A stretch of 63,991 nucleotides of DNA, counting the filler, from Klebsormidium nitens (Eukaryota; Plantae; Klebsormidiophyceae), in the NCBI GenBank assembly GCA_000708835.1. It is 4 parts of 4 records of this genome, joined end to end, with 100 filler letters (N's around TTAATTAATTAA, not from the genome) between each part and the next. Parts side by side here need not be neighbours in the genome. Positions count along the whole stretch, not along the records: positions 54,673 to 57,928 come from DF238591.1; 3 more parts are not named here. One strand, written 5' to 3'. The notes beneath the pieces are model-generated. The model was not told the DNA's origin. It saw nothing but the letters and a program-made list of their open reading frames with translations, and did not search any database. The position numbers were made by a program, and so were the translations under genes. Within the stretch, counting starts at the first letter, position 1, and every line of letters starts with the position of its first letter. Of this stretch, positions 18,385-63,991 are shown in pieces.

Positions 18385-25321
<6,937 letters not shown>

Positions 25322-25984
25322 CGTAGCCCGGGTCAGGCAGGAGCAGCCGCACAAGCAGCACGCAGCATCGGGGTCAGCCAGACAGCCACCGGCAACCTGG
25401 AGAGCTTATCCCCGACCACAACATCTTGACTCCTCCTGCGCACAACTACGCACTGTCCAGATCACCTTCTTCCGGTGTGTGGCGTTCTAGCCTGGCAGAC
25501 CCGCCATATCAAACAGGCCAGCCTTCCTACAACATCTGAACCACCTATCAAAGTTCTCATACAAGTGGCAGCCTTACCTCATAACAGTTCCTGCAAGATG
25601 ATGACTTTGTTAACCGCCGCTTGCCGCCAAGCTGCAATCTAGAACGCGAGTCAGCTTCTCGTCCTCGCGTGTCCAAAATGTAGGCTGTGTAGCCCTGGCC
25701 CTGGGTATGTACAGCAGAGTCGGACAAGACCGTCTATCTTCCCTCAAAATTTTCCTTTGAAGGTAGTCATTTTGAACCTTCTGGGCTGACAAGCTGGACT
25801 CTGGAGTCTGGACTGTCTGGTGCAGTGCCAGCCTGCACTACCGTACCTACCGGTATACCTATCCGTACCGAGTCGCCGGCGGAAATGGTTAAGGTTGCGC
25901 GTCGACCGGAAACCTACTTGGCCTCAATGCGGTACACCTCGCCAAGCGCAAACCAACCGGCCACCCGGGCACAGCGCAGTACGT

Positions 25985-28921: not shown

Positions 28922-29021
28922 NNNNNNNNNNNNNNNNNNNNNNNNNNNNNNNNNNNNNNNNNNNNTTAATTAATTAANNNNNNNNNNNNNNNNNNNNNNN
29001 NNNNNNNNNNNNNNNNNNNNN
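28922..29021. other. Assembly gap with TTAATTAATTAA linker
   Basis: 44 N, then TTAATTAATTAA (28966-28977), then 44 N. Confidence 0.97.
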
Positions 29022-37471: not shown

Positions 37472-39561
37472 GGCCCCACGTCAAAGCGCTAGCGCAGCAG
37501 CATCGCAGAGGGGGCCGCACGATGAGCCACCCGGGGTTTGGGCTCACGAATACGTAGGCGTTAGATGTCAGCAATATACCAAAGCCGCAAACGAGTTGTT
37601 TACAGGATTTGGTACCAGGAAAGGTGGTTGTCAGAAAAGTCGAGTTGCGTGAAATGCGCAAGGCGACAATGTCGCCGAAGACGCTGCATTTCTTTGGGCG
37701 TTGATTATGCGGCAGCGGCAGCAAGGAGGCTGAACAAACCGTACAGCTGCCCCTTTACCGTCTGCTTTGCAGGACTCTCAGAGCAAAGATGGTGAGCCGA
37801 TAACAATTAGCCCGTCAAGGATGACAATTCTCTGGCAGCTGCAAGTCGGTACGGCCACAACTCTGCAAGTATTGCTCAAGAGCCCATCAAACCACTTGCG
37901 TGCTGGTGAGTCCCTTAGGCAAGGCAATCTCGACAACATACGGCACACCTCCAGTGCAGAGCAGTGACCACCCCCGCCGACAGTAACAAAACCCCCGATG
38001 GACTTTGTGACGAGCTACTCGTGACCTCGACGAGAGCTTCTCCCTCATGGCACTTTGGATTTCAAACAGGAAAGCGCAACCTATCTCTCTCAGCACAACG
38101 TCCGTTTTAACATCAACAGAGCGCCTCGTGCAGCACTGGTGTACGTACCTTTCGGAGTGGTGTGCTCGGGAGTCGGTACGTGTTGCCCAGGGCCCACAGC
38201 CTACACTGCCCTACCGTAGGTATACGGTAGTCGAAGTTGAACGCTCCTGACCGTAGGTACAGGAATATGTACACTTCCTTGCGATTCGCCATGATGACGG
38301 AGGGGTCACCGGCGACGTTTGATATCGTGGTTCAGGGCCAGTTGACCCTCTGCCGGGCCCGGAAAAGTCGGACGTGTCGCCGGCAGAAGGATGTTAACAC
38401 CTTCCAGTCTTCTCGGCACAGCCTTCGTTCGTCACATCGATCCGACAAAAGCCAGACGGAGCTCACACGTATATCGCATATGCCGACAAATATATACCCG
38501 GCCCAGCGAAGAGTCTATCGGCCCGACAAGCCGGCTAGTAAAGCCGCCCTGAAGGTTCGGCTTGTTCAGAGGCTAGGACGGTCTACATCCCGGTTATTGA
38601 TCCCCGGGCAACAATCAGGGCGTACCTACTGCCGCGGCCTGATTATTGGGCAAAATTCAACGCCTTGAAGTGAGCCTATGATGTGTGAGAAAGAATTTAC
38701 ATTCTCGCGTGTGGGCAACGTACCTACGAGGTCCGAGTCTAGCCTGGCGCAGCTCTAGGCTGATGGCACGTGACAACTAGTATGGCGGCCAACAGAATTC
38801 CGTCCATGATGCATCATGCATGCTGGACCGCGCAGCTATTAGTTAGTATCAGTATCAGTATCATTCAATGCCTCGACACAATAAACCGCAAGTTACCATC
38901 ATTCAATGCCTGGCGGTAATTGGCCTCTCAGTAACTTGGCCCTCATGCAGCTACTGAGTGTGCCATGGCGGCCGCCGCCGCCATTGAGTCTATGGCACGT
39001 GCACTAATGGAACTGTGCAATGTTTGATGCAGCCCGACGTTGCATCCAATCTTCACTCGAGGGCCGTGCCTTACTTCACACTGTTACGAAAGTGCCTCCG
39101 TATATGAAAGTGTCGGTACGGGTACGATGGTCTCTTTTCGTTCTCGCCGTAGCCAAATTGGCCATAGGGTTCTCATGGCATACATGTATGAGTTTGTGTA
39201 CGTCCTCTTCTGCTTTGCAATGGCTAGCCTATGCCTACCTACCAGAGGTCCGTAGTACACCGCATCAATACGATACAGAAGTGCTTAGGCAATCCTTTCA
39301 AAAAGTGCTTCCTTACGAAAGCGTCCTTATGAGACAAAAGTTTTATTAGCCACCGTCACGGTTGAGGTCTTCTGTCCCGAAGGGATAACATACACCAACA
39401 ATCACATGCATACGGTATGTGCTATAAAAACCTATCCTATGATCCTATGGACGAAGGCTGCATGACCGAGAAAAAGAATAAAAGAGACAACTCGAATGTG
39501 CCGGCATATACAGTTTAATAGCAGATTGAGGTGTTGAGCGATTAGTCGTCTCTTCGAGCAT

Positions 39562-42232
39562 TCAAATATTTGATTTCAGTTCCTTTAACCTACTTCTGGC
39601 ATGCAACTTAGCTCGTGCCAAAATGTGCTTTTGCCCGATCCTCCAACAAAAGGCGAGTGAAATCAACTCATCTACAAAATCAAACTTTCGTTCGCATACT
39701 TCGTTCTCCTTACACCAATGGGTTATCGGTCCTTGCTGCTCTGGATTGCTAAGAGCCACTTGCACGGGCTTCCAGGCTTTATCATGTAAAGCAAGGTCGC
39801 TTTCAAGACTGGTTGGCAAATCTTGCAAAAGCAGTTGACATACGCTTTCTAACCACTCATACGTCCTAACATCCCCTTCCACGGAAATCCGCATTCCAGC
39901 AGACGCAAGGTGTCCATACCGTTTTCTGTCGAGGGCTGACGCTGCTCGCAGCCGCAGGGCAGACAGGAGACCAAAGGATGGTTGCCCATCTGCCCGTACA
40001 TGACACTCGGAGCGCATCTCCAACTCTGCGGAATGGACATGAGAACGTTGCTGCTCACAAGCCGCTTTCGGAAGGAGGCTGGCTGGTAGCAGGATGGTGA
40101 CCGCGTCGTTGGGATTGTCGGGAAGGAGGAAGCCGTAGTGCTCCAGCAAGTCGAGGTTACGGTACGCGCCATAGCAGAGGAGTACCTGCGTATGAGACGG
40201 GTCGCTTACAACCCCGCGCAATGCCTCCGGATCGAAGCGCCTTGCAGGCTGATTCGCTGCTTTGTCCGTGTCCTCCGTTTAGCTTCTGGTACGACCTTCG
40301 ACGGACCTGACGAGGTCCAGCCAAGACCGGTCGAGGATGAAGTAGCGGCAGTTAGGCAAGCGAAAAGTTGGGTACGAGAGTCCTGGGCGTACCTGCTGGC
40401 CTGTCCTGTAGTTCTCCCGTGCGTAGAAGCGGAAGCAGCGGGTCTCCGCGTCAAAGGCTCCGTCTGTGAGGCGGGCGGTCTGGTCCTCCTCGGACGGCGC
40501 AGCGTAGTTGAACAAGTCGCCCACGGGACAAAGCGCGCCCGCAGAATCGAAGGGAATCGCCACAGAACGGGAAGTGACCTGGACGCAGTACAAAGACAAA
40601 CGTCCGTTCAAAATGTTCCTGTTGGCATCGAAGTAGACGAGGAGACGGCGTACGCATCGTGGCACATAGCGCCACAGCCGTGCTTTGATGCCGAAGGCAG
40701 CTTGCTAACCCTTGCTTCCCAGCGGTGGTTGAGCGCTGTAGAACGCGCAAGACACTGGGATGCACCAGTGGTTGAACGACCTGTTCAGAGAATCAAAGGC
40801 TGTGCAGCTTCCACTTGAGCCGGAGGTTGATGAGATGGGTTCAAAGTAGTAGAGACGAGTGACACAGACACTGTGGTGGAGAGCACAGCATCGAAATCAG
40901 AATTTGGGTGCAAACAAAGACTCAAATGAAAGCACAGACTGCATCAAGAGTCAACCGAAGGTAACAGACAGCCTTCCTCATCGTAAGTACTCAATGACGA
41001 AGATGAAGAAGTCAAAATAAAGGTAGCGACGGAGACCTAAGGGCATCGAGCTGCTTAACAAGTACTGGAGTTGGCCCCTGGCAGAGGCAACAAAGAAGTC
41101 CGGCTCCCGGCTCTTGAATGACTAACGAAACATGTTTAGAAGCTCTGCTTTGACGTGACCCCCTCAAACCGAATGGGGACTCCGTGGTGGAGATGCGCAG
41201 AGGCCCAGACAAAACATGCTGCCCCAGGGGGAGCCCCTGGGCCGGCCGAAGTTGCAGGTGCACAGCCGGGGCCTGCAAACACCATTTGCCGAGAATACCC
41301 TGAAGACTGAGCGTTAGTTTTCAAACATTCACAAAAGCACCCCATCAGCCAGCACCATCAACGTGTTCTCCCGGCGGTCCTGCATGGCTGGCCCCGCTCT
41401 CGCGCCTGCTCACCGTTGCGGCGGCCCACAGCCAGGCCTTGAAGCGCCGGAACTTTGGGGGCAGCCCCAAATCCTGCAACAAAGGGGCGGCTGCAGCCCA
41501 ATCGCGGTGCGCTTCGGTGCGGGCCCGCCGGGCGGCCTCCATGGCATGGGGAAACTGGAGGTGGAGGACCTGAGGGGCGGAGAAGTGGGCGAGGGTGTGG
41601 TGCACGCGAGGCAGCGCTAGCAGGTAAGGCCGCCAGAAGGAGGCAGCCCCCTTGGCCACCTCGTGCAGTAAGTGCACTATCAGGACCTGCATGGGTGAAA
41701 GACAAGGGGGGGGGAAATCAAAATCCTTAAAATGCCGTTCACTAAAAAGTGACCGTCTCAGAAGGGGAGATGTTTGAAAGCACGATCCCCTTTCAAAAGA
41801 ACATAAAGGCAGAAAAATTCACCACATGCTGGAGAAGAGGATTGGAAGGACTCCGCAAGAAACAAATGCATCTGAGGGTTGCTGTTGTTCTGCCCCCAAC
41901 GAACACACCTGGTGCGAAGTCAAGCCTGGAGATCTGGTGAGCAGGGGTCCGAGAATGGCATCCGTGCGAGCTGACTTGGCGGTCATGAGCAATTGCTCAG
42001 GCACTGCCAGAAGCGCCTCCCCCGCTGTAAGGTCCCTCGTGGCAGCCAGGCCCCGGCCCCCCGCCTCAGGAAAAGTGGCCACCGCTAATGTCGTCTCCAG
42101 GCAGCTCCTTCGTTCGTTCCTTCTAGACTGCCGCGGCAAATGACCGGCCTGATGTAACAGTGGTGCAGAAACAGAGTCGTGCGCTCCGTGCTCCGCTGCC
42201 CACTTCAGCAGCTCGTCCAACTCTTGGTCCAT
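39562..42232 (-). CDS. SDG40: SET-domain (Rubisco LSMT-like class) lysine methyltransferase, SDG40-like
   Basis: MDQELDELLKWAAEHG..FPEAGGRGLAATRDL..LLAVPEQLLMT, WLWAAAT|VTSRSVAIPFDSAGALCPVGDLFNY, and VLLCYGAYRNLDLLEHYGFLLPDNPND. GT-AG introns. The ATG at 42232 is used rather than the TTG start in the ORF track. Confidence 0.85.
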
Positions 42233-42478: not shown

Positions 42479-42914
42479 TACTCTCGACAATTTTCGCCGA
42501 CCTTAAGTTCTAAGTTCCAACTTCGCCGACGAATCTCGATCGCTACGCGCGGCGCTCCACCGCACATCGCCACTGCTCGCGTACTTTTATGTATGTTATA
42601 TGCATCAGTCGGACGGCAATGCTAGCGCGCATATTGACGGCGGGATGACGCTATGGCCCGTCAGTGAAATCTGCGGTCTAGCTTGAGTCGCCATCATTTT
42701 GGAAACGCCAGGCGTAAAGCCTGAGGTAACAAGGATAACATAAATCTGTCATATATCCTCTTTTATTCAGTGTTATTGTCGCTGAATATTCATCTACCTT
42801 TTATAAAATTTCAGTCGCGGAGGGCGTTGGCCGCCAGGCCAATGTCCCACGCCTCTCACAAAGGTCATCGGCTTATTGCATCCTGGGCGTTCCAATTTCC
42901 GCCACCCTTAATTC
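42479..42914. repeat. Dispersed composite repeat, copy 2 (modules X, Y, Z), in the SDG40/CYC1 divergent intergenic region
   Basis: See copy 1. The distal 101 bp (42814-42914 vs 28247-28347) are 99/101 identical. Confidence 0.9.
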
Positions 42915-43195
42915 AACTACCGGTAAGCTGCTGCTCGGCACCCAGGTGTTTTATTTTGATGGCCACGTGCTACAAGATGAACCGTGCGATGTGCAAATGC
43001 CAGTGTGCAAGACGGCCATTGCCAGAAAGCGCTGAGAACGTCAAGAGGAGGACTCGGAGGAGCTTTGACGCGCTTGCATTGCAAGCGCCAGATACGATCT
43101 GAACCCAGCTCTTGGGGGACCCTTTGTGTCCGCTTGATCCCCCTTTCCTTCTGCAGACGCGGCGATCAAGGCCAACGGCAAACGCTGCGTCCAGC

Positions 43196-51700: not shown

Positions 51701-53426
51701 GGCCACCGGCCACAGCCAGGGTGATGGCAGCACCAACCAGAATACCAATCCCCTGCATGCTGAACACAGCAGCCACAAAGGCACCGCGGGTTGCCCTGTA
51801 ATAGAAAAGGGCTGAAAAAGTTCACATGTGGCACAGAAAACACTTGGTTATTCGGTATAAAAGCAAGCAAGAGTAGATTGCTTCCTTGAACAATCTCATG
51901 CAACCAAGATTGACACAGAAACGTAGTCTACGAGAGATTTTAAGTGGCAGGGCAGCTTTTGACACATAGCTCTAAGAACCAAGGGTCAGGACACCGTAAC
52001 GACTACAGACTTGCAATTCGCTTGGGAAGGGCACTAGCAGATGCCCCTTGCATTTCTAATTTCTGAATCCACATGAGTTACATTAGCACAGCACTCACTT
52101 GTTGGCATACTCGGACATGATGACAGCAGACAGGGGGTAGTCACCGCCAATACCCACTCCCAACATGAACCGGCAGATGCACAGAGTTGTCACGACCGCA
52201 AGAGGCGTGGTCCCAAAAGACATGGCCTGGCCTACTCCAAAGACAACCATGGTGATCAGAGTAACACCATAGGCAGTCTTCCGGCCAATCTTGTCGCCCA
52301 ACCTGGAAGACAAACAACTCAACTTCAGACAAAAAAGCTCATGCGGCTGGCCCAGAATGCTCACAGTCTCAGCATTCGCAATTAGCGGTAACTGACGGTG
52401 ACCCAGTTCCCTCATTTTAACAGAGTTTCATCATAAGGATGACACACGGTTTGTAACTTTCACAACATGGACGACAGAGAATAACCCTGTGCGTCAGGGT
52501 CTACCTTTCTCTTCTCATCATGAGAAGGTCGGACATGCACTGCATACTGTCCCCTCCACAACCTGCTCCACAACCCCACCCCACTAGTTCTGCCAAAGTC
52601 ATCACTTGAGAGTACAGCAATCCTCATCCTGTGACACCTGACGAGGCAGCTGAATGAGCCATGCTTACCATCCAAAGAAAATCTGGCCAGCCAATGTCCC
52701 GCACAGGGCCACAGCAGTGATGGCAGAGTTCTGGTTGATGGGAAGAGCACCAGGCTTCTTGCCATAGAAGGAGGTGGGGCAGACTGTGTTCAGCGGGCAG
52801 CGTGGGGTGTAGTAGATGCGACCAATCAGCTTGGTCAGAAGACCAATCCTGTGGAAGAATGGGACTCGCTCAGAAGGGTAACACACCTATACACAGGGAC
52901 AAGGATTACTAGCTTTGCAGATTGCAGGTTGAACAGACCATCTCACTGGCAAGATCCAGACTTGCACTGCTCAGAGACGTCTGGCGCGGCAAGAGGAAAG
53001 TGCTACCGAGCGAAAGTGTTACCGGGACTCACGTAAATAGATCATAGGAATCGTTGAAGAAACCCATGCCTGCAGCAGAAGGCGAAAAGAGATGAGCAAT
53101 GGAAGCCTTCCTGTGCCAACATTCACAAGCTTCGACACTGGCTCAGTAAGTTCATCACTGAGTACATCACTGGGTTCGTCAAGGACTCCAGTACAGAAGA
53201 CGTCAAGGACTCCAGTGCTGAGGAAGAAGCAACGTCTTGCAAGTCGACCAGCAAAGCAGCAACTCGGAGGTACAGCACTACTGAAAGCTCAGTAGCAGCA
53301 GGCAGGCGCTCAGCATTCCTTCCCAACCTGTGAGCAGTGGTGCATACCTGCGATGATGATGGCCTTGAAGTGAAACCATGAGACCTTCTGCCCGTCAAGG
53401 GCCGCCAACACCTGAGACTTCACCAT
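48760..53426 (-). CDS. PHT1: PHT1-family H+/phosphate symporter (MFS), multi-exon, with a tandemly duplicated exon
   Basis: [46 protein letters not shown], signature [85 protein letters not shown] and [10 protein letters not shown]. The last exon [14 protein letters not shown] is inferred. Confidence 0.95.
50165..50316. repeat. About 76-bp imperfect tandem duplication inside a PHT1 intron
   Basis: cagatcgctctgattgatgattcgatc...accaacagacttcactggcaatga versus cagaccactctgattgatgatccgatc...gccaacagatgtcactagcagtgc. Confidence 0.85.
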
Positions 53427-54572: not shown

Positions 54573-54672
54573 NNNNNNNNNNNNNNNNNNNNNNNNNNNN
54601 NNNNNNNNNNNNNNNNTTAATTAATTAANNNNNNNNNNNNNNNNNNNNNNNNNNNNNNNNNNNNNNNNNNNN
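54573..54672. other. Assembly gap with TTAATTAATTAA linker
   Basis: 44 N, linker at 54617-54628, 44 N. Confidence 0.97.
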
Positions 54673-55242
54673 CGCAAGTTCTCCCTCCTGCTCATCGAGG
54701 AGAATCCGATCTTCCTCAAGAGCTTCTGCAGGAACCTCGCACTCCGGGGGCACGCGATCGACATCGTCCGAGACCTCGCCGAGTTCATGGCCATGGCCGA
54801 GGCGGGATCCATCCACCGTACGTACGACTGCGTCTTGGTCGACATGAGCGATGCGAACCTGGACCTGGTACAGAAACTGCGCAAGACCGAGAGAAGGACC
54901 GGCCTCAAGAGGCTTCCCGTCCTCGTCTCCGTCCCGTACGGCGCCGAAGGATGGGAGCGGCGCTACCTGGATGCGGACATAGACGGGCACTTCATGAAGC
55001 CCTGCAGCGAGGACGTCATACTCAGCCGAGTGACCGATGCGATCAGCTCCGTCAGCGCACTGGTGGCCATACACGAAGACAGCGCCAGCCAAGGATCTTC
55101 GGCCGATGGTTTCAGCATGAGCGATAAGGGATCCTTTCCTCGCACCACCGTCGAGAAGACGGCGTCGTCCATGACATCCCTTCCGCCCAGTGACATCGAC
55201 GAGACGCTTCGATCAGGCGGGGTCGGAGAATGGCATCACTAG
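54673..55242 (+). CDS. Response-regulator receiver (REC) domain protein, 5'-truncated by a gap, possibly the C-terminus of a hybrid histidine kinase
   Basis: The frame is open from the contig edge: LLLIEENPIFLK..RGHAIDIV..YDCVLVDM..LVQKLRKTERRTGLKRLPVLVS..LDADIDGHFMKP. It shows the acidic pair, the phospho-acceptor Asp and the conserved KP. Intronless. Confidence 0.75.
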   Translation, partial: RKFSLLLIEENPIFLKSFCRNLALRGHAIDIVRDLAEFMAMAEAGSIHRTYDCVLVDMSDANLDLVQKLRKTERRTGLKRLPVLVSVPYGAEGWERRYLDADIDGHFMKPCSEDVILSRVTDAISSVSALVAIHEDSASQGSSADGFSMSDKGSFPRTTVEKTASSMTSLPPSDIDETLRSGGVGEWHH

Positions 55243-55319
55243 CGTTCCGGTATCGAACATGACCCAGCGATCGTGCGCCTCTCGGCAAATATTTCTACCG
55301 GCGGTGATGTAGGGAGACC

Positions 55320-56228
55320 ATGCTAGTGACCGACACACTGACGGAAGGCTTCTGGGGCCAGGTGTTCCCTTGGATTCTGGAGATACTCCATTACGTCGAC
55401 CTGAAACGTTCGGGCGCCACGTTCAAGATAGCTTGCGCGAACTATGGTGTCGAGCCGGACTTTGACTGCATCGCGCCCTACATAGAGCACAAGTTACCCG
55501 ATGATGGTTCAGACCGCATCGTATACAATCTCACCCATCTCAAGACGGCTCACGGCATGGTGTTCCGCGAATTCGAGTCCCCGAATCGGCTGTGGAACAA
55601 GTACTTCGATTTCAAGCGGCCCATTCGCGAGGAAGTCGATGCTTTCGTTTCTCAGAACTTCACCGGTCGCACGCTGGGAATCCACTTCCGAGGAACCGAC
55701 AAGATGGTCGGTCACTGCATCCAAGGCCAGCTCATGTCCTACGCCGACATGGACCTCGTGATCGACGACTATTGCTCTCGCCCCGGAACGATGCCCGAAA
55801 CGATCTTCGTGGCCTCCGACGAAGCCAATTATATAGAGCATGTCAAGACTCTGTACGGTACCCGTTTCAAGGTGGTCCACCGTACAGACTCGTCGAGGAA
55901 CGAGAAGAACGTGCAGCGGCCCGCTTTCTACGGGGTCGATGAACACACCGGAAGACGCCTTCCCAGGACCCCGGAACAGGTGCTGGCTCTGGGGCGAGAC
56001 GCGATATGCAATCCGCTGATCCTCTCGAGATGCGATGCGGTGCTGAAGACTTCGTCCGCCCTCTCCGCTTGGGCAAAGATCTTCGAGCCGTCTCTCGAGA
56101 TCTGGCGGGTGAATGGATTTATATATAGGTGGTTTCCGGACGCCAGGATCCCCCTCTACGGTTCGTCTAATCCAGCCGTGCGAGCAATGCTGGACCGGGT
56201 CCAACGAGGGGAAGGAACGAAAGCGTGA
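55320..56228 (+). CDS. NodZ/FUT8-like (GT-B fold fucosyltransferase-type) glycosyltransferase
   Basis: 302-aa intronless ORF with LGIHFRGTDK (HxR GDP-fucose-binding motif I), IFVASDE (motif II) and ILSRCDAVLKTSSALSAWA (motif III-like). Confidence 0.7.
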   Translation: MLVTDTLTEGFWGQVFPWILEILHYVDLKRSGATFKIACANYGVEPDFDCIAPYIEHKLPDDGSDRIVYNLTHLKTAHGMVFREFESPNRLWNKYFDFKRPIREEVDAFVSQNFTGRTLGIHFRGTDKMVGHCIQGQLMSYADMDLVIDDYCSRPGTMPETIFVASDEANYIEHVKTLYGTRFKVVHRTDSSRNEKNVQRPAFYGVDEHTGRRLPRTPEQVLALGRDAICNPLILSRCDAVLKTSSALSAWAKIFEPSLEIWRVNGFIYRWFPDARIPLYGSSNPAVRAMLDRVQRGEGTKA

Positions 56229-56293
56229 AGCCGGCTACCGCTTTCAGATCGCGTTCGCACCCATGACGTATATTTTGTACGTGATTCGACAAT

Positions 56294-56746
56294 ATGGATC
56301 AGCTGACCTGGGTCTTGGCTCAAACCAGAGCTTATCTGTTGGCGTCTATCTCGGTCAAAGGCGTGGAAGACTTAGCCGTCACTTTAGACGTCTCCCATCT
56401 GGGGCTCTCTGCGGCGAGCATGGCCTGGCTGTGCGAGGTCCCGCATCGCCACGTCTGTTGCATGCCCATCAGCGGCTATTGGACGTCGTACGTGGACAAA
56501 GGGGTCATCACCTACTACCGAGGCGACCTGTCGCGCGCCTCGCGGTACGCCATGCACCTGCTGCGGCCGCCGGTGCACCACTATCTCCAAGAGACGGAGA
56601 GCGCCTTTGCGGTCTTGCTCGACGGTGACGGCGATCCCGTCTCTCGTAACACTCTGTATTTTCTGGATCTGGATGACGAAACGGAACAGAAACGGGTCGT
56701 CGCGTACATGGGACCTGGAACGGTGGGCATGACCAAGATCTGTTGA
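56294..56746 (+). CDS. Hypothetical protein (150 aa), intronless
   Basis: The ATG-initiated ORF fits tightly between its neighbours and has the same codon style as the other contig ORFs. No family recognised. Confidence 0.55.
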   Translation: MDQLTWVLAQTRAYLLASISVKGVEDLAVTLDVSHLGLSAASMAWLCEVPHRHVCCMPISGYWTSYVDKGVITYYRGDLSRASRYAMHLLRPPVHHYLQETESAFAVLLDGDGDPVSRNTLYFLDLDDETEQKRVVAYMGPGTVGMTKIC

Positions 56747-56849
56747 GGCGGTCGATACTCGAACTCCATAGCATGCGCCTGCCGTGAGGATGGTCGGGTG
56801 CATACGGCTCACGAGAAGCACCCCACCAGATAGCGTGGTTTGAGACGCA

Positions 56850-57482
56850 TCATGGGCACATCGTGATGGTGTAAGACGGCGCGGATCCGCACGTCCGCAC
56901 GGAGGTAGGGTCGTCGAAAGCGTAGGTGTAGGCGTCGGGGCAGAGCGTCTTGAAGTAGAGGGAGAGCTCGTTCGCAGGGCACGTCTCGGGCGTGCGGTGG
57001 TCCCCGGTGCAGCAGAATTCTGGCGCGGCGTACTTGCTGCAGGCGCTGAGGCACGGGGCGCCGTCGTACTCTACCAGATCGGCCGGGCACGCCGCCACGT
57101 CGAACGCGCACTGGATCGTCGGGCAGTTGTCGGAGGACGGCACGATGCGCATGCCGGAGTCGAAGCCGTCCACGATGCTGATATCGTAAAAGTCGTCGTT
57201 CGAGTCGTCGATGAAAAATTCCGCGAGGGTGTTGACTCGATCCTGAGTGGAGTTGTTCCAGATCCGGCCGCCCCATCCATGGGGGACGACGATCTGCGAC
57301 GATTCGGCGCCGGGGGCTAAAATTCTCGAAGGCGACGCATCTAGCAGCCCCCGCGTGCCATCGATGGCCCACGTCACCTCCGTCGAGCAGTTGTTGCGGA
57401 CGGTGAGAATCCTGCCGGAGCACGACTTCGCGGTCATGAGGGCGAGGAGGATGCCGATGATCAGAGAGGAACGCACCGCCAT
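56850..57482 (-). CDS. Secreted thaumatin-like protein (PR-5 family), intronless, internally deleted
   Basis: Signal peptide, then LTVRNNC, WGGRIW, TLAEF, DFYDISIVDGF, CLSAC, EFCCTG, YFKTLCPDAYTYAFDD and YTITMCP*. Confidence 0.9.
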   Translation of the reverse strand: MAVRSSLIIGILLALMTAKSCSGRILTVRNNCSTEVTWAIDGTRGLLDASPSRILAPGAESSQIVVPHGWGGRIWNNSTQDRVNTLAEFFIDDSNDDFYDISIVDGFDSGMRIVPSSDNCPTIQCAFDVAACPADLVEYDGAPCLSACSKYAAPEFCCTGDHRTPETCPANELSLYFKTLCPDAYTYAFDDPTSVRTCGSAPSYTITMCP

Positions 57483-57529
57483 GGAGCATATAAGAGAGTT
57501 GGCAAATTATCTGAGGCGACGAGGAGTCC

Positions 57530-57928
57530 TCAACGTAGGTGGTCGGCCGGCCGGAAGGACTCGTTGAGCAAGCAGAAGCGCTCGATGGCACCCTTGAAAC
57601 GACCGAAGTTGGCCGAAGGCGTCGCAACGAGGTCTTCCACCGTCTCGACGTCCCCTCCCGTCTCCTGAAAGAACTCCAAGCAGAGGAGACCCCTAGCGGA
57701 AGGACGATCCTCCTCCGGGCCTATGCAGGCCTCGATGAGGGCCCGCAGGTTTCGGTTCCGAACGAATTGCAACTCCTCCGGACGCGAGCCGCTCAACACC
57801 TCGAAGTACAGCTCGCTCACCGACTTCATCCGCCCGTACGGCTTCTTGAGCGTCGTGATCTGCAAGATCGTCATCCCCAGGGCGTACACGTCCGCCTTCA
57901 GCCCGTAGGACCCCCGCAGGACCTCCGG
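57530..57928 (-). CDS. WNK-like Ser/Thr kinase, C-lobe only (5' part lost in gap), intronless over the visible part
   Basis: PEVLRGSYGLKADVYALGMTILQITTLKKPY..SELYFEVLSGSRPEELQFVRNRNLRALIEACIG..DRPSARGLL..FF parallels WNK subdomains VIII-XI. Confidence 0.7.
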   Translation of the reverse strand, partial: PEVLRGSYGLKADVYALGMTILQITTLKKPYGRMKSVSELYFEVLSGSRPEELQFVRNRNLRALIEACIGPEEDRPSARGLLCLEFFQETGGDVETVEDLVATPSANFGRFKGAIERFCLLNESFRPADHLR

Positions 57929-58028
57929 NNNNNNNNNNNNNNNNNNNNNNNNNNNNNNNNNNNNNNNNNNNNTTAATTAATTAANNNNNNNNNNNNNNNN
58001 NNNNNNNNNNNNNNNNNNNNNNNNNNNN
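57929..58028. other. Assembly gap with TTAATTAATTAA linker
   Basis: 44 N, linker at 57973-57984, 44 N. Confidence 0.97.
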
Positions 58029-58348
58029 ACGTTTCAATATGAGCGCGGGAAACGCCGTGAAAGAGGCGTTGTGGTTCCGCAAACTCGGAGGAGATCTCGG
58101 GTTGGACCTCGGAGCGATCCTAATTCATTGCGACAACCAAGGCGCAATACGGCTCCTCAAGCATCCGATCGCTTCGCAGCGATCGAAGCACATCGACGTG
58201 ATTCATCACTTTGCGCGGGAGCGGGTGGCGCGGAAGGAGGTCGAGTTCGCGTATTGCAAGACGGAGGACATGAAGGCGGACATCTTGACCCAGGCGTTGG
58301 CGCACCCGGAAAGTTCTTGAAGTGCAAGAAGGAGATAGGAATTGCATA
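58029..58348 (+). mobile_element. Ty1/Copia LTR retrotransposon pol 3' end (RNase H), frameshifted near the end
   Basis: KEALWFRKL..IHCDNQGAIRLLKHPIASQRSKHIDVIHHFARERV..YCKTEDMKADILTQAL matches the Copia RNase H motifs. Confidence 0.92.
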
Positions 58349-58358
58349 GGATACTTAG

Positions 58359-58640
58359 TGCGTGGGGGAGTGTTAGAATTGGGCGGTACTAGCCTTGACT
58401 ACGGCCTAATATCCTATGATTTATCGTCCATAGAGTCGTAGGTTTGATGCATAACATCGGCCGTACGATTGTGAGCCTGCATGATTGAATATCCACCGTA
58501 GGATGTGCTAAACGTAAGCCGCAGGATTGAGTCCATTGTGCATGGGTTCTTTTGTGATGTGTATTTCGGTAAAGCCGTTTGATAGGTTCTTTTGTTGCCA
58601 ACGTCGAATAGGGACCGTCGATTTGTCGATTGGAACACCT
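58359..58640 (+). mobile_element. Copia polypurine tract and 3' LTR (right end approximate)
   Basis: GCGTGGGGGAG is followed immediately by TGTTAG at 58371, the canonical PPT/LTR start after pol. The LTR end was not determined. Confidence 0.7.
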
Positions 58641-59599
58641 AGGGTAGCTAGGCTTGAGCTAGGCTGTAATACTTGGACTCATGTAGCAAAAGAATCACAC
58701 TCATTCCTAGTAGTTGTGCACTTGAAAGGCGCTTGCTTTCTACACAGAGCATGTTAGCCATATCGGACAAACATTTTTGCCGTGAATGTTGGGGACACAA
58801 TTTGCAAGAAATAAATCGACTTGAAACCCGTATACCGGCTCTTTTCAATGGACACGGCAACATGAGAAGCCCACATAGAACCAGGACACGCCAATAAAAA
58901 ATGGTGTACCACTTCAACTCGTAAATGATATTAGTTCATGACCGCCGTCGAAGGCCAATTCGTTTGCCTTTGGACACGGGTTTGCTTAAAGGTGAAAGCT
59001 CGTTATAACAGCGCTAGCTTACACACAAAAGCTCTGACCACTTTTGGATGGCTATATTGGAAGCAACATCTCGAGCGTTCAGCGGCGTTCTTACTGCCGC
59101 ACAGCTGTACAAAAATATGCACATTTTCCCGCAAGTACTGTTCTTTTCTGAGTACAGTAACGAGGATTAACAAGGAAACGGACAAGCTTTTTTCTTGTCA
59201 AAACGTGAAAGTCTGTTTATAAGTCGACCGAAGTTCGACAGCCCGTTACAATGTCTATTCTTTTTCCACTCACTATTATACCGATTCCGATTCGCTGGTG
59301 GACTTTGAGACGCTTTGCAACCCGAATCGCTTTTCGACGTTTTGGCCGGGACCATCCGTGGCGCCCTCGTGTCCGGCTTGGAACCATTGTCTAAAGCCGA
59401 TTGGTCGCTTTATCCGGCTTGCCAAAGGGAATTGTCCCTCCCATCAAATTTGGACGAAGTCGAATTATTGTCCGTTTCACAGATGCTGGGAGAGATCGTT
59501 CTTTCGACCGGCCGCGTGCTTTTTTTGTCCAGATCTAAAATCTTTTGGCTGACCAAAACCGTTCCTCTCTCTTCCAAATGGGGGTCACTGTTCAAGGCC

Positions 59600-60620
59600 G
59601 AGTCCGAATGAGTGGCCGTCTTCGACTTGCTGTTTTCAACCGCCCTTCTGCCAGCCGGCTCCCCCGTGTCCGAATCTGCAGATAACTCTACGAATCCGTT
59701 TCACTTTCCGACTCCGACTTCCTCCTGTCCGAATTAAGATCACTGTCCGTGCCCGAGTCCGAATCGCTGTCTGTCTCCGATTGCTCTTTTGGACCGCCCG
59801 TTTGACTGCCGCCCCCCCCGTGTCCGAATAACTTTCCGAATCCGTTTCCCTTTCCGACACTGGCTTGCTGATCAAGACCGGCTACCTCGTGTCCGAATTA
59901 GTGTCACTGTCCGAGCCCGAGTCCGAATCGGAGTCCCAATCGCTGTCCCTATTCGACTTGCTGCTTTGGACCACCTCTTTGAGTGACCCGGCTCCCCTGT
60001 TTCCGTATGTGGAAAAAATCCTCCGAACCCAAGGTCGCTTTCCGGTCATCCTGGTCGCTCTCCGGCTTGCTGAACGATTGAGTCTTGTGACCGAACCGAT
60101 TTCCGCTTGTTAGCGGCCGAGCAATTATCCGAATCTTGTTCGCTTGCTAACCGAGACCGGCTTTCTCCAATTCTGTTCAACGTCATCGTCCGAGCTAGAG
60201 TCAGAATCCGAGTCGCTACTTGTCTCCGGCTTGTCGAATGTAACTCATCGTCGGAATGAATCCATTTCTAGCCTGTCCGCTTTTGATTCCCTCCCGAAGC
60301 TAAGTCTGCGCGTCGGCTCCCCGCTTGCTGGCCCGACCCAGCACTGTACCCGAAAGCAGCTTCCTCGTCTTCAAATTGCAGCCACTGTCCGAAATCGAGA
60401 CGCTCTCTGTCTCTCTCATGTTGCTGAACCGAACCGTCTTTCTGACACGAAGTTGGTCCCTCACGTCAGAGTTCAACTCAGTAGTCGAACGTGGTCCAAT
60501 ATTTGTCCGCGTTTGAATCGAATCAAGGCTTTTGTATTCGCAATCCAGTTTACTGACAAACCCGTCTGGAGAACCATCTTTGCTTTGTTGACCGGAATTC
60601 TTCGAACTCGGTGATCATAG
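59600..60620 (-). pseudogene. Decayed Ser/Asp-rich repetitive ORF (probably retroelement-derived) with degenerate tandem units of about 170 bp
   Basis: Minus-frame runs such as DSDSDSSSDDD and SNRDSDWDSDSDSGSDSDTNSDT are interrupted by stops. Repeated ccgagtccgaatcg / gtgtccgaat units. Confidence 0.4.
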
Positions 60621-60980
60621 TCAGCCGAATTACTGTCTGATTAAGATTCGGCCCGTGTTAGGGTATGAACTGGTGAATACCGACGTGCGTGTACTGCGGT
60701 TGGACGGTGAAACCGTTAAGCGGTTTGGAGGTTAGGCTGTTGAGAGCGGCCGTCAGTGTTAGCCGTACATAAGGATATCGAAGGCTAAGATCGAGTGTGA
60801 CTGTGAGCTAGACTAGTGAGCCTAGTAGTGTGACTTAGGCTAGTGAGCTCAGTAGGCTACTGAGCCCAGTGGAACGGGAAAGACCCGTAAGCCATATGAT
60901 GGTGGAAACCACTATTGTGATACATCATTCTAAGAGAGTTTTGTGGAGAGAAGGAAGCCGCTTGTGGGGCGCTTCGTGTG

Positions 60981-61863
60981 NNNNNNNNNNNNNNNNNNNN
61001 NNNNNNNNNNNNNNNNNNNNNNNNNNNNNNNNNNNNNNNNNNNNNNNNNNNNNNNNNNNNNNNNNNNNNNNNNNNNNNNNNNNNNNNNNNNNNNNNNNNN
61101 NNNNNNNNNNNNNNNNNNNNNNNNNNNNNNNNNNNNNNNNNNNNNNNNNNNNNNNNNNNNNNNNNNNNNNNNNNNNNNNNNNNNNNNNNNNNNNNNNNNN
61201 NNNNNNNNNNNNNNNNNNNNNNNNNNNNNNNNNNNNNNNNNNNNNNNNNNNNNNNNNNNNNNNNNNNNNNNNNNNNNNNNNNNNNNNNNNNNNNNNNNNN
61301 NNNNNNNNNNNNNNNNNNNNNNNNNNNNNNNNNNNNNNNNNNNNNNNNNNNNNNNNNNNNNNNNNNNNNNNNNNNNNNNNNNNNNNNNNNNNNNNNNNNN
61401 NNNNNNNNNNNNNNNNNNNNNNNNNNNNNNNNNNNNNNNNNNNNNNNNNNNNNNNNNNNNNNNNNNNNNNNNNNNNNNNNNNNNNNNNNNNNNNNNNNNN
61501 NNNNNNNNNNNNNNNNNNNNNNNNNNNNNNNNNNNNNNNNNNNNNNNNNNNNNNNNNNNNNNNNNNNNNNNNNNNNNNNNNNNNNNNNNNNNNNNNNNNN
61601 NNNNNNNNNNNNNNNNNNNNNNNNNNNNNNNNNNNNNNNNNNNNNNNNNNNNNNNNNNNNNNNNNNNNNNNNNNNNNNNNNNNNNNNNNNNNNNNNNNNN
61701 NNNNNNNNNNNNNNNNNNNNNNNNNNNNNNNNNNNNNNNNNNNNNNNNNNNNNNNNNNNNNNNNNNNNNNNNNNNNNNNNNNNNNNNNNNNNNNNNNNNN
61801 NNNNNNNNNNNNNNNNNNNNNNNNNNNNNNNNNNNNNNNNNNNNNNNNNNNNNNNNNNNNNNN
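60981..61863. other. Sized assembly gap (N run)
   Basis: Uninterrupted N run. Confidence 0.95.
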
Positions 61864-63991
61864 CAACACGATAAGACCCGATGACTAGTACCTCAACTAC
61901 ACTACGACTCCCCACCATCAGTTTCAACAGGAATCCCTCTTCAATCGCCGGTGAGAAGCGGACGTCCAAAAGTGCATGAGGGCCCGGATCGGAATTGCAA
62001 TCCATCTTCGGCTTATCTCATAGGAGTCTGGTTGGCTTCTCAGATCCGTGCTGCCTGGCTTTGCAGCGGATTCGGATTCTGACAACAACCCGCTGCCAAA
62101 AACGTCTTTGGATGGACCCAAAATGCTTCCAGCTGAAGGGGAATCCGGCATGAGGATTCGGACCGCGGTATAGAGGCGAGACGATATCCGAAGGCGCCTG
62201 TCCGAAGACGAGTCCGATTCCGGATGGCACCGCATCGGTTCAAAGGGAGTGACTTTGAAGCGCTTAATGCTGGAGAGAAGACCAATGCTTTCTTCAAAAC
62301 ACGGTCGAGTAAGTTAATACGCCAACGGCGGCTCCCGGATTCAACTTCGAGGTCGTAATCTATGCCCGCTAGATTCCTCCCCTCTTTATGCCACTCCTCC
62401 CAACAACTCCTTTGAGGCACACGACAAAGCGCCAGCTTATGCTGGTTAAAATCATATTTTCATGCTTGTCATAAGCTAGGGTCTAACCGCGCCTCACACA
62501 TAAGCGCCTTCACAAGGAAGCGCCTTTTCCCTTCAAGCATTTCTTAATGAATATCTTCGCATGACATTAGCCCAAAGTCACTTCAATCCCTTAGCTAGGT
62601 GTACTCTACCCTAGGTCGGATTTACTTCCACCACCCACTAGTCGGTTTTACACAATAAACTCCTTTCCATCAACCAGTCATTCTACCACTCACAATACGG
62701 CCTATCTTCCACTCGGACTGGCGACCGGAGCACTATACTACTAGTGGTCGGTGGTACCGTACTACTAGTGGTCGAGGTACTATACTTCTCGAGTCGACTC
62801 ACATCTAACGATCCACAATCCGAGTCAACACGCAATCCAACGGTTGATACTCAACGATACAACTTCTGGTTCTACGATCGATATTACACAACACAAAAAG
62901 AACTACGGTCGTTAATTAACACGACACGATCCACGATACTACGGCTCAAATCTATCGAGCCTAACAAAAGATATTGGCCGTCAATCAACTCGGTTTTTCA
63001 AAATTCCTAGCACTGACCACAAACGTGACGGTGCAGTGGTGCATGGCTCATGGCTCGAGAGATCAACCATTTTTTGGTCGCAAACGACACACGTGGGCAA
63101 GAAAAGAGCTCGAGAACTTGAGACCCTCCAGCTTAAAATCGACTCGACAATTGTTTATGTTTGCGCATTCACAGACTCGTTCCCAGATTAAACCACAAAA
63201 GCACCGAGTCCGACATGCATTGCAGCATTGAGAAAAGAGGCCAAGTCAGATGCATGAGGTTCCTCATTCGGATGAGAGCGAAGGCTTTTGACCCTCGCAG
63301 TCTTCAAATATTGTTCCGAACCAAAAATCGCACTAGGCATGACGGACCTGATAATTGTTCTAACAAGGACTGATCTTTCGAGCTAAAGGTTTGTAGGTCA
63401 AGGTTTGAGAGCTGCTCACCTTCGCTCTGGCTTGCCGTTTCAGCCGACAGTGGTCCCAGCTTCGTGCGCGGCGCCCTTCTCTTCCATACTCCTTCTGATC
63501 TATTTGGCGCGAATTGACGGATTAAGGTGACATGCTTGTTATAGCTTGTTCAATGTTGTTCCGGGGCCGACGCTAGTATCAATCGTCGTTCTTTTCCACA
63601 ATGGCATAAATTTCCCAGCTACTAGGATGTATGTAAAAGTTCAATTCATCGCTGCTCACCGACCTTTCAATGGGCCGTGGATTAAAGGTTTGTGCATCAA
63701 GGTGCCAGTCCTGACTTTTTGCATAGAGCTTTAAAAGGGCTGTGTGGTGACATGCTCGGACCGGGTTCGTCGAGGCAATTAGAGATATTTTTACAACATG
63801 GCTCTACGAACGTGTGAATATCACAGTCCATAAGCACGAGCACATGAAACAATATCCACTATAAACTAGTAGGCGGGTTTGAAAACGTTCTTTTCAACAT
63901 GAGCGAGCGCCTTCTCATACCTTAAAGCTAGATTGGGCTTTGTTGAAACACAGCGTTGTTGGAAGTGATATTCAATCAATCAAGTTCACAC

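What the first reader, a model, noticed from the sequence alone, without database searches (positions are those of the whole stretch)
54673..57928. Gap-bounded, intronless, about 91%-coding island of host-like signalling, defence and glycosylation genes: putative endogenous giant-virus or foreign DNA
Seen: five ORFs cover 2964 of 3256 bp with spacers of only about 47-103 bp and no introns in the visible parts. They are arranged +,+,+ then -,-, with a codon style rich in CG-containing codons. Every host gene in the window is intron-rich. Content: REC domain, NodZ/FUT8-like glycosyltransferase, unknown protein, thaumatin, WNK-like kinase. Known: dense intronless arrays that mix eukaryote-derived genes with glycosyltransferases are typical of Nucleocytoviricota and their endogenized copies in green lineages. 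WNK kinases are eukaryotic, which argues against simple bacterial contamination. Inference: a virus carrying captured plant-type phosphorelay, kinase and PR-5 genes could be a host-manipulation module. No viral hallmark gene is visible, and both flanks are artificial linkers.
Basis: partly seen in the sequence, partly recalled or inferred. Interest (0 to 1): 0.8.

Follow-up and report, generated by a model that had tools for sequence, protein, structure and literature searches.

The report
Likely algal giant-virus accessory gene block
A 3.3-kb piece of tightly packed, intron-free genes (a WNK-like kinase, a thaumatin, a signalling receiver, a predicted fucose-adding enzyme and an unknown protein) in a Klebsormidium algal assembly is likely a fragment of a giant virus, and close copies in unrelated samples keep the block but lack the sugar enzyme gene.

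Summary
Both flanks are scaffold linkers, so this is a separate contig, not an island seen inside host DNA. Named Klebsormidium nitens proteins match it.

It looks non-host: CpG/GpC 1.33 against 0.72±0.09, yet host-like depth in the best-holding run. Three other studies hold ORF1, 3, 4 and 5 at 90-95% identity, with mostly synonymous changes (21 of 32 codons) and no cover on the fucosyltransferase-like ORF2; one contig bridges ORF1 to ORF3 without it. A second variant in the best-holding run has ORF2 broken.

ORF3 has no GTDB or IMG/VR relative. No viral hallmark gene or host junction is shown, so 'giant virus' is inferred (0.68). Klebsormidium giant-virus contigs, and phaeovirus thaumatin and histidine kinases, are published. 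WNK kinases also occur in giant-virus MAGs (7 of 8 motif hits); I found no paper on this. 'Plant-type captured genes' holds clearly only for WNK. The scan noted other giant-virus pieces in this genome before, but no look-alike of this block.

The parts
54573..54672 (.). Artificial scaffold linker (N44 + 12-bp stop-in-all-frames spacer + N44); left end of the contig
   Evidence: same linker at 28922-29021 and 57929-58028
54673..55242 (+). ORF1: receiver (REC) domain plus a roughly 60-aa low-complexity tail; 5' end cut by the contig end. Acidic pair E8/E9, phospho-acceptor D56, S85 and K108 present (numbered from 54676; residue roles recalled)
   Evidence: Pfam Response_reg 7.9e-6, 26.5 bits, cut-off 30.2; PDB hybrid-kinase receivers E 0.0075-0.098; motif positions; a contig of run X1 runs on 3656 bp upstream
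55320..56228 (+). ORF2: complete 302-aa GT-B protein of the NodZ/FUT8/POFUT fucosyltransferase clan; the variable gene of the block
   Evidence: profile hit to NodZ 7.9e-8; model pLDDT 90; VIA Z 15.3 NodZ (rmsd 3.4, 222 aligned), 15.2 FUT8, 14.7 POFUT2, tied; no cover in X5, X6, X8 and broken in a second X1 variant
55185..56302 (.). Swappable interval: replaced by 614 other bases in a contig of run X8; the X5 and X6 contigs leave the window sequence at the same point (55184)
   Evidence: tables 5, 7, 8
56294..56746 (+). ORF3: 150-aa protein of a small unnamed family (15 clusters at 50% identity); no Pfam family, no clear fold match
56850..57482 (-). ORF4: thaumatin-like protein with a signal-peptide-like N-terminus (by inspection), acidic-cleft residues R73, E88, D100, D105, D191 kept, 12 mature cysteines, and loss of the roughly 23-aa CxTGDC loop
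   Evidence: Pfam Thaumatin 4.1e-38; alignment; PDB; cysteine count
57530..57928 (-). ORF5: C-lobe and tail of a WNK-like Ser/Thr kinase; N-lobe lies beyond the contig end
   Evidence: best 15 PDB sequences are WNK1/WNK3; loose ends in X1 and X6 continue into a WNK-type activation segment (read by eye, table 7)
57929..58028 (.). Artificial scaffold linker; right end of the contig

Best explanation
This contig is likely a fragment of the accessory-gene region of a large DNA virus (likely phylum Nucleocytoviricota) of Klebsormidium-type streptophyte algae, likely integrated in or persistently carried by the alga. Shown: five packed intron-free genes, a conserved gene order, excess synonymous change, and a fucosyltransferase-like gene that is intact in one variant, broken in another and replaced in relatives. 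Inferred roles during infection: the thaumatin would be secreted and bind or cut beta-1,3-glucan (callose) in the host wall; the WNK-like kinase would phosphorylate host ion-transport or stress proteins; the receiver would take a phosphate on D56, alone or as the end of a hybrid histidine kinase; ORF2 would transfer fucose from GDP-fucose to virion surface glycans, a trait that varies between virus strains, which would explain its turnover.
For: Architecture and composition unlike host scaffolds. Depth of long contigs in run X1 is 17.8-27 on the shared parts against 16.4-20.5 on long host contigs, as expected for DNA carried at about genome level. Runs X5, X6, X8 (three studies, three organism labels; 3 of 10 small-share runs laid) hold ORF1, 3, 4, 5 at 90-95% identity in pieces up to 727 bp, while their matches to a 17-kb host stretch are at most about 150 bp. 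21 of 32 classifiable changed codons are synonymous against 23-25% expected (p 1.5e-6; 4e-4 if 35% is assumed), with no stop among them. ORF3 and ORF4 relatives lie on metagenome contigs of matching lengths three times (15,240; 25,319; 26,980 bp), so linkage is likely conserved. ORF3 has no relative in 185,579 GTDB genomes; its only named relatives are K. nitens models on 3.3-kb and 34-kb contigs. A second K. nitens thaumatin of the same clade is modelled as fused to ankyrin repeats on a 13.6-kb contig (ankyrin richness of giant viruses is recalled). PMC5294986 (passages and section 9 read) reports many phycodnavirus-like contigs in a Klebsormidium assembly, with captured expansin and cyclin genes and a false gene fusion. 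PMC11890097 (passages read) reports histidine kinases and an expressed thaumatin in phaeovirus proviruses. WNK-type kinases occur in IMG/VR: 7 of 8 motif hits, 5 of them labelled GVMAG. ORF2's fold has matches in several giant viruses.
Against: No hallmark gene (MCP, PolB, A32, VLTF3, D5) is on the contig. IMG/VR scans found no relative of ORF3 or ORF4, and only 23-31% relatives of ORF2 over long stretches. The viral WNKs are distant (29-34% over the C-lobe, AT-rich). ORF2's closest contig with context, L017 (53%), has an outer-membrane beta-barrel neighbour and looks bacterial. No host junction is seen. Repeat-rich host segments share the CpG signature. Logan depth is not a copy number. The codon test uses only the 40 of 194 rows that one search printed; a 167-bp match in plant assembly B2 gave 3 synonymous of 7 codons. 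All protein functions are untested.
Confidence: 0.68

Rival explanations
1. The block belongs to another kind of large DNA element of the alga (a mirusvirus, a Polinton-like virus or a giant transposon) that carries cargo genes in the same packed way.
For: No NCLDV hallmark on the contig and no IMG/VR relative of ORF3 or ORF4. Unreviewed scan notes describe non-NCLDV viral-type replicons in the same genome. Synteny, gene swap and purifying selection fit any live mobile genome.
Against: A glycosyltransferase, a thaumatin, a two-component domain and a WNK kinase each have NCLDV precedent, and the published viral contigs of this genus are phycodnavirus-like.
Confidence: 0.13
2. The contig comes from a co-cultured or contaminating microbe with a compact genome (a small eukaryote such as a fungus or protist; less likely a bacterium) that lives with these algae.
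For: No junction to host DNA. The nearest named thaumatins are from Mucorales fungi (36%). ORF2 is of bacterial type. Relatives occur in runs that hold little of the host stretch. The match in plant assembly B2 is on 248- and 275-bp contigs.
Against: Depth equals host depth in X1. Spacers of 47-103 bp without introns across five unrelated genes are unusual for a eukaryote. WNK plus a secreted thaumatin are not bacterial, and ORF3 is absent from GTDB. ORF3 and ORF4 family members recur on other small K. nitens contigs.
Confidence: 0.11
3. These are ordinary, unusually compact host genes or domesticated retrogenes of Klebsormidium.
For: Host-level depth; purifying selection; public host gene models exist.
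Against: Composition outlier. The block is better conserved in three other runs than 17 kb of host DNA. Whole-gene swap of ORF2. The public models fuse neighbours across conserved termini.
Confidence: 0.06

Closest known systems
Phycodnavirus-like contigs of Klebsormidium (Gallot-Lavallee and Blanc 2017, PMC5294986; passages, section 9 and supplement legends read; Figure S5 itself not visible)
   Same: Same genus; separate contigs, mostly without a visible host junction; mosaic of viral, bacterial and eukaryotic genes; captured wall and signalling genes (expansin, cyclin); false gene fusions in the annotation.
   Different: Those contigs carry NCLDV core genes; this one has none. The passages read do not mention thaumatin, WNK, a receiver or a fucosyltransferase.
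Phaeovirus proviruses of brown algae (EsV-1; Porterinema EVEs, PMC11890097; passages read)
   Same: Integrated algal NCLDVs that encode histidine kinases, a thaumatin-like protein and glycosyltransferases in mostly intron-free, mostly silent regions.
   Different: Different host supergroup; no WNK in the passages read; homology of this thaumatin and receiver to the phaeovirus genes was not tested.
Punuivirus, the latent GEVE of Chlamydomonas (bioRxiv 10.64898/2026.10.09.758095; abstract and outline only)
   Same: Model for an integrated giant virus of a green alga that can still reactivate in some cells.
   Different: Chlorophyte host; complete element with shown virion production; nothing of the kind is shown here.
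WNK-type kinases in giant-virus MAGs
   Same: Intron-free WNK genes in dense viral gene arrays; these show the subdomain-I GxGAFKKVY-type lysine and VAWN motif (motif labels recalled).
   Different: 22-26% GC genomes, only 29-34% identity over the C-lobe, no shared neighbours with this block.
NodZ / FUT8 (GT23) and POFUT fucosyltransferases
   Same: GT-B fold over the whole chain; GIHxRxxDK and FVASDE motifs.
   Different: 12-17% identity; NodZ, FUT8 and POFUT2 are tied; below Pfam cut-offs; acceptor unknown.

Membership tests
Nucleocytoviricota (endogenous giant virus element) | Hallmark genes (MCP, PolB, A32 ATPase, VLTF3, D5) on the same DNA | tested here: inconclusive
   None among the five ORFs, but the contig is 3.3 kb and cut at both ends; longer relatives could not be fetched
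Nucleocytoviricota (endogenous giant virus element) | Dense, intron-poor gene array with composition unlike the host | tested here: met
   91% coding, spacers 47-103 bp, CpG/GpC 1.33 vs 0.72±0.09; repeat-rich segments are similar in composition
Nucleocytoviricota (endogenous giant virus element) | Closest relatives of the genes lie on viral contigs | tested here: inconclusive
   IMG/VR: none for ORF3 or ORF4; distant ones for ORF2 and WNK; the closest relatives are unlabelled metagenome proteins
Nucleocytoviricota (endogenous giant virus element) | Junction with host chromosome | not testable with these tools
Nucleocytoviricota (endogenous giant virus element) | Methylation or silencing in the host | not testable with these tools
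   No methylome or raw RNA reads available; PMC12344493 (passage read) reports methylation enrichment of viral genes in K. nitens in general
WNK kinases | Catalytic lysine in subdomain I (beta-2) instead of subdomain II (recalled) | not testable with these tools
   N-lobe lies beyond the contig end
WNK kinases | C-lobe closest to WNK kinases | tested here: met
   Top 15 of 47 PDB sequences are WNK1/WNK3, E 6.7e-11 to 7e-9; next family 1.4e-5
Thaumatin-like proteins (PF00314) | Family profile above curated cut-off | tested here: met
   131.6 bits vs 27.4
Thaumatin-like proteins (PF00314) | Acidic cleft R-E-D-D-D (recalled) | tested here: met
   R73, E88, D100, D105, D191 present; invariant or nearly so in 13 aligned sequences
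Large (16-cysteine) thaumatin-like proteins | 16 cysteines including the CxTGDC loop (recalled) | tested here: not met
   12 mature cysteines; loop missing in all 6 clade members aligned
GT23 (NodZ/FUT8) | GT-B fold with GDP-fucose-binding motifs | tested here: met
   Z 15.3 to NodZ, rmsd 3.4, 222 aligned; motifs at 120 and 163
GT23 (NodZ/FUT8) | Specific assignment to GT23 rather than the wider clan | tested here: inconclusive
   NodZ, FUT8 and POFUT2 tied within 1 Z; Pfam scores below cut-off
Receiver (REC) domain | Acidic pair, phospho-acceptor Asp, Ser/Thr, Lys (recalled) | tested here: met
   E8, E9, D56, S85, K108 aligned to known receivers; Pfam 26.5 bits is under the 30.2 cut-off
Hybrid histidine kinase | HisKA and HATPase domains upstream in the same ORF | not testable with these tools
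   The frame is open at the contig end; the 3656 bp upstream in X1 were not retrievable

The most novel reading that the evidence does not exclude
A still-circulating giant-virus lineage infects Klebsormidium-type streptophyte algae, close relatives of land plants. It carries a WNK kinase, a loop-deleted secreted thaumatin and a phosphorelay receiver as a conserved host-takeover block with a swappable surface-fucosylation gene, and the copy in this culture is present in only part of the cells (its private contigs have about half of host depth), as expected of a latent, mobile provirus.
Probability: 0.27. Interest if true: 0.75.

Novelty: new member of a known kind. Interest (0 to 1): 0.45.

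Why it matters
Giant-virus DNA in Klebsormidium is known only as remnants. As of 2017 no NCLDV had been reported for streptophyte algae (PMC5294986), and my search for a latent one listed 2 papers, unrelated by title and abstract. Relatives at 90-98% identity in independent samples, under purifying selection, suggest a present-day virus population, and ORF3 and the loop-less thaumatin are specific markers for finding its genomes and hosts. A virus-encoded WNK kinase did not turn up in the library (0 papers with 'WNK' and 'giant virus'), yet WNKs are on giant-virus MAGs. A viral thaumatin aimed at callose would be a testable model of early plant-virus wall conflict. The general phenomenon, accessory host-like genes in algal giant viruses, is well known, which caps the score.

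Tried and rejected
No whole genome is held, and the genome-index search of plants, protists, viruses and fungi alone did not complete, so other plant assemblies and the context of longer relatives stay untested. The one answered index search aligned 20 of 494 ranked genomes: one plant assembly (B2) matched ORF3 at 95% and 83% on tiny contigs; 17 bacterial hits were 26-33-bp chance matches.

Expression: no RNA holder listed; this is no evidence either way.

IMG/VR scans were blank for ORF2 alone, ORF3 (three queries) and ORF4 (two queries). GenBank phages were blank for ORF2. GTDB was blank for ORF3; ORF2 relatives there reach at most 36% full length (best 80 of 316 kept). The single metagenome scan went to ORF2 (best 80 of 484 kept); no locus held by then except L001 matched another ORF of the block.

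ORF3: no Pfam or NCBIfam family, no Atlas hit, no Foldseek hit at E<=0.001 in PDB or BFVD, best VIA Z 4.8 on residues 1-81. This does not show a new fold.

None of the four spacers folds better than shuffles (z -0.6 to 1.1), so no hairpin terminator is claimed. The predicted introns of P0022 and P0058 were rejected because they delete conserved termini. The ORF2 tree used 38 rows: 27 loci picked from the top, 10 proteins and the query.

Papers: Figure S5 of PMC5294986 is a picture, so I could not check whether contigs with ORF3 or ORF4 relatives carry core genes. Record ids were not in the one held supplement of PMC12344493. PMC4052687 mentions 'virus' only in a reference. Klebsormidium+thaumatin listed 6 papers, none on viruses by title and abstract. 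bioRxiv supplements were closed. Scan look-ups by sequence, words and relatives were empty.
Full report
1. Observation. The stretch 54673-57928 lies between two identical N44-TTAATTAATTAA-N44 linkers; a third is at 28922-29021. The window is a concatenation of scaffolds and the 'island' is a whole 3256-bp contig. Five ORFs fill it: ORF1 54673-55242 (+, 5' cut), ORF2 55320-56228 (+), ORF3 56294-56746 (+), ORF4 57482-56850 (-), ORF5 57928-57530 (-, 5' cut). They cover 2964 bp (91.0%) with spacers of 77, 65, 103 and 47 bp. CpG o/e is 1.20 and GpC 0.90 (ratio 1.33) against 0.72±0.09, maximum 0.92, in 93 overlapping windows elsewhere. The short repeat-rich segments left out of those windows have similar values.

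2. The genes. ORF1 is a receiver domain (Pfam 7.9e-6, under the cut-off) with E8, E9, D56, S85 and K108 in the canonical places (roles recalled). Its first ATG lies inside the domain, so the start is beyond the contig. The nearest Atlas clusters are bacterial (a lead only), so 'plant-type' is not supported.

ORF2 is complete. Its profile hits NodZ (7.9e-8) and FUT8, and its model (pLDDT 90) matches NodZ, FUT8 and POFUT2 at Z 15.3, 15.2 and 14.7, and several giant-virus and cyanophage proteins. Its 7 closest relatives of 14 (46-60%) are unnamed metagenome proteins. In a 38-row tree it sits in a clade of 8 (98/98) that includes L017, a contig with an outer-membrane beta-barrel neighbour. Named bacteria reach at most 36% full length, IMG/VR 31%. 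It is likely of bacterial origin.

ORF3 belongs to a family of 15 clusters at 50% identity with no Pfam family, no clear fold and no relative in GTDB or IMG/VR. ORF4 is a thaumatin-like protein (4e-38) with a signal-peptide-like start, an intact acidic cleft and 12 mature cysteines. It and its 5 closest relatives (59-92%) lack the CxTGDC loop; the nearest named proteins found are Mucorales thaumatins at 36%. ORF5 is a kinase C-lobe whose top 15 PDB matches are WNK1/WNK3; loose ends in runs X1 and X6 continue into a WNK-type activation segment (read by eye).

3. Host and annotation. Cluster look-ups returned proteins named Klebsormidium nitens (P0022, P0058) on a 3256-bp contig. They follow ORF2 for 281 aa then ORF3 from residue 24, and ORF5 for 123 aa then ORF4 from residue 25. 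These predicted introns remove ORF2's conserved C-terminus, ORF3's conserved N-terminus and ORF4's signal peptide, all kept in free-standing relatives, so I read them as false fusions. Two more family members are named from the same species on other small contigs: an ORF3 relative (47%, 34 kb) and a thaumatin (57%, 13.6 kb) modelled as fused to ankyrin repeats.

4. Depth and variants. In run X1 long host contigs have depth 16.4-20.5. On the island, contigs shared by both variants have 17.8-27, the ORF2 contig 11.5, and a bubble splits 7.6 (window letters) to 16. X1 thus holds a second variant, 1-2% different over most of ORF3-5, in which ORF2 is broken (joints 55202>55353 and 55933>56150). An X1 contig runs 3656 bp beyond the left end, so the block is part of something longer. 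Depth here is not a copy number; the half-depth of the window's variant is a weak hint only.

5. Relatives elsewhere. I laid 3 of 10 small-share runs (X5, X6, X8; three studies, three organism labels). All cover ORF1, 3, 4 and 5 at 90-95% identity and none covers the nine bins over ORF2; one X8 contig joins 55184 to 56303 with 614 other bases. The same runs match the 17-kb host stretch only in pieces of about 150 bp or less (table cut, longest kept). Of the 40 of 194 differences printed, 5 fall in spacers; 11 of 16 changed ORF1 codons (relatives) and 10 of 16 ORF3-5 codons (second X1 variant) are synonymous, against 23-25% expected. A 167-bp match in plant assembly B2 gave 3 of 7. ORF3 and ORF4 relatives share contig lengths three times (15,240; 25,319; 26,980 bp), which implies linkage, though I could not read those contigs.

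6. What it is. A packed, intron-free, mixed-origin block that is conserved in order, purified by selection, swaps a glycosyltransferase, travels apart from the host DNA tested and recurs on small contigs of one alga is best read as accessory DNA of a large virus. PMC5294986 (passages and section 9) describes many phycodnavirus-like contigs in a Klebsormidium assembly, mostly without host junctions, with captured expansin and cyclin genes. PMC11890097 (passages) gives histidine kinases and an expressed thaumatin in phaeovirus proviruses. PMC12344493 and PMC11244446 (passages) note methylated viral genes and endogenization in Klebsormidium. A motif scan of IMG/VR found WNK-type kinases in 7 of 8 hits, 5 labelled GVMAG, 29-34% identical to ORF5. 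Against this reading: no hallmark gene, no close relative on a contig labelled viral, no junction. I put NCLDV at 0.68, another large element at 0.13, a co-cultured microbe at 0.11 and host genes at 0.06.

7. How it likely works (all inferred). The thaumatin would be secreted and act on beta-1,3-glucan in the wall (cleft kept; callose in Klebsormidium walls is recalled). The WNK-like kinase and the receiver would retune host ion and stress signalling. ORF2 would fucosylate virion glycans, a strain-variable trait (chlorovirus precedent cited in PMC11890097), which fits its loss and replacement. ORF3 is best used as a lineage marker.

8. Novelty. Endogenous giant-virus DNA with host-like cargo is known, in this genus too, so this is a new member of a known kind. 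Not found in print: a viral WNK, a Klebsormidium viral thaumatin or a latent virus of streptophyte algae; the library lacks most subscription journals, and Figure S5 of PMC5294986 could not be seen. The scan's earlier notes record other giant-virus pieces in this genome (unreviewed) but no look-alike of this block. Interest 0.45; 0.75 if a live, WNK-bearing virus of these algae is confirmed (probability 0.27).

Noticed in passing
L178:7701-8549, L179:7587-8552, L180-L184 (about 7000-8650): Full-length, intron-free WNK-type kinases on AT-rich IMG/VR contigs (5 labelled GVMAG); L180-L184 share their neighbours. No paper with 'WNK' and 'giant virus' was found.
   Followed up: partly
window 58029-63991: Last scaffold is repeat-rich: it opens with a frame that reads like the RNase H end of a copia retrotransposon (recognised by eye; no Pfam hit), followed by Ser/Asp-rich low-complexity DNA. 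CpG o/e 1.15 in 58029-60980.
   Followed up: partly
window 5563-52886: Host genes seen as partial domains: glucan water dikinase (5563-11117), GDP-mannose pyrophosphorylase (13373-13897), PI4-kinase beta (18982-25405), a CDK-like kinase (34083-37480), a Rubisco-LSMT-type SET protein (39562-41818) and an MFS transporter, likely a phosphate transporter (52095-52886).
   Followed up: partly
window about 39125-39220 and 42480-42915: Short high-copy repeats: depth in the thousands at about 39160 and hundreds at about 42880 in run X1, with many different flanks; likely small transposon ends.
   Followed up: no
L002 and L018: AT-rich (26%) contigs, one in IMG/VR, with a distant ORF2 relative inside a long sugar-biosynthesis and glycosyltransferase cluster beside ClpB-like and phage-like genes; they look like huge-phage glycosylation islands (by eye).
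   Followed up: no
P0062 (K. nitens, 13,555-bp contig): Thaumatin of the same loop-less clade modelled as fused to ankyrin repeats; its metagenome twin P0046 ends after the thaumatin, so the fusion is likely another annotation error on a second virus-like contig.
   Followed up: partly
window 55287-55298 and 57496-57509: The spacers upstream of ORF2 and ORF4 both contain GGCAAAT followed by an AT-rich run, on the + strand in both cases; too few cases to test as a promoter motif.
   Followed up: no
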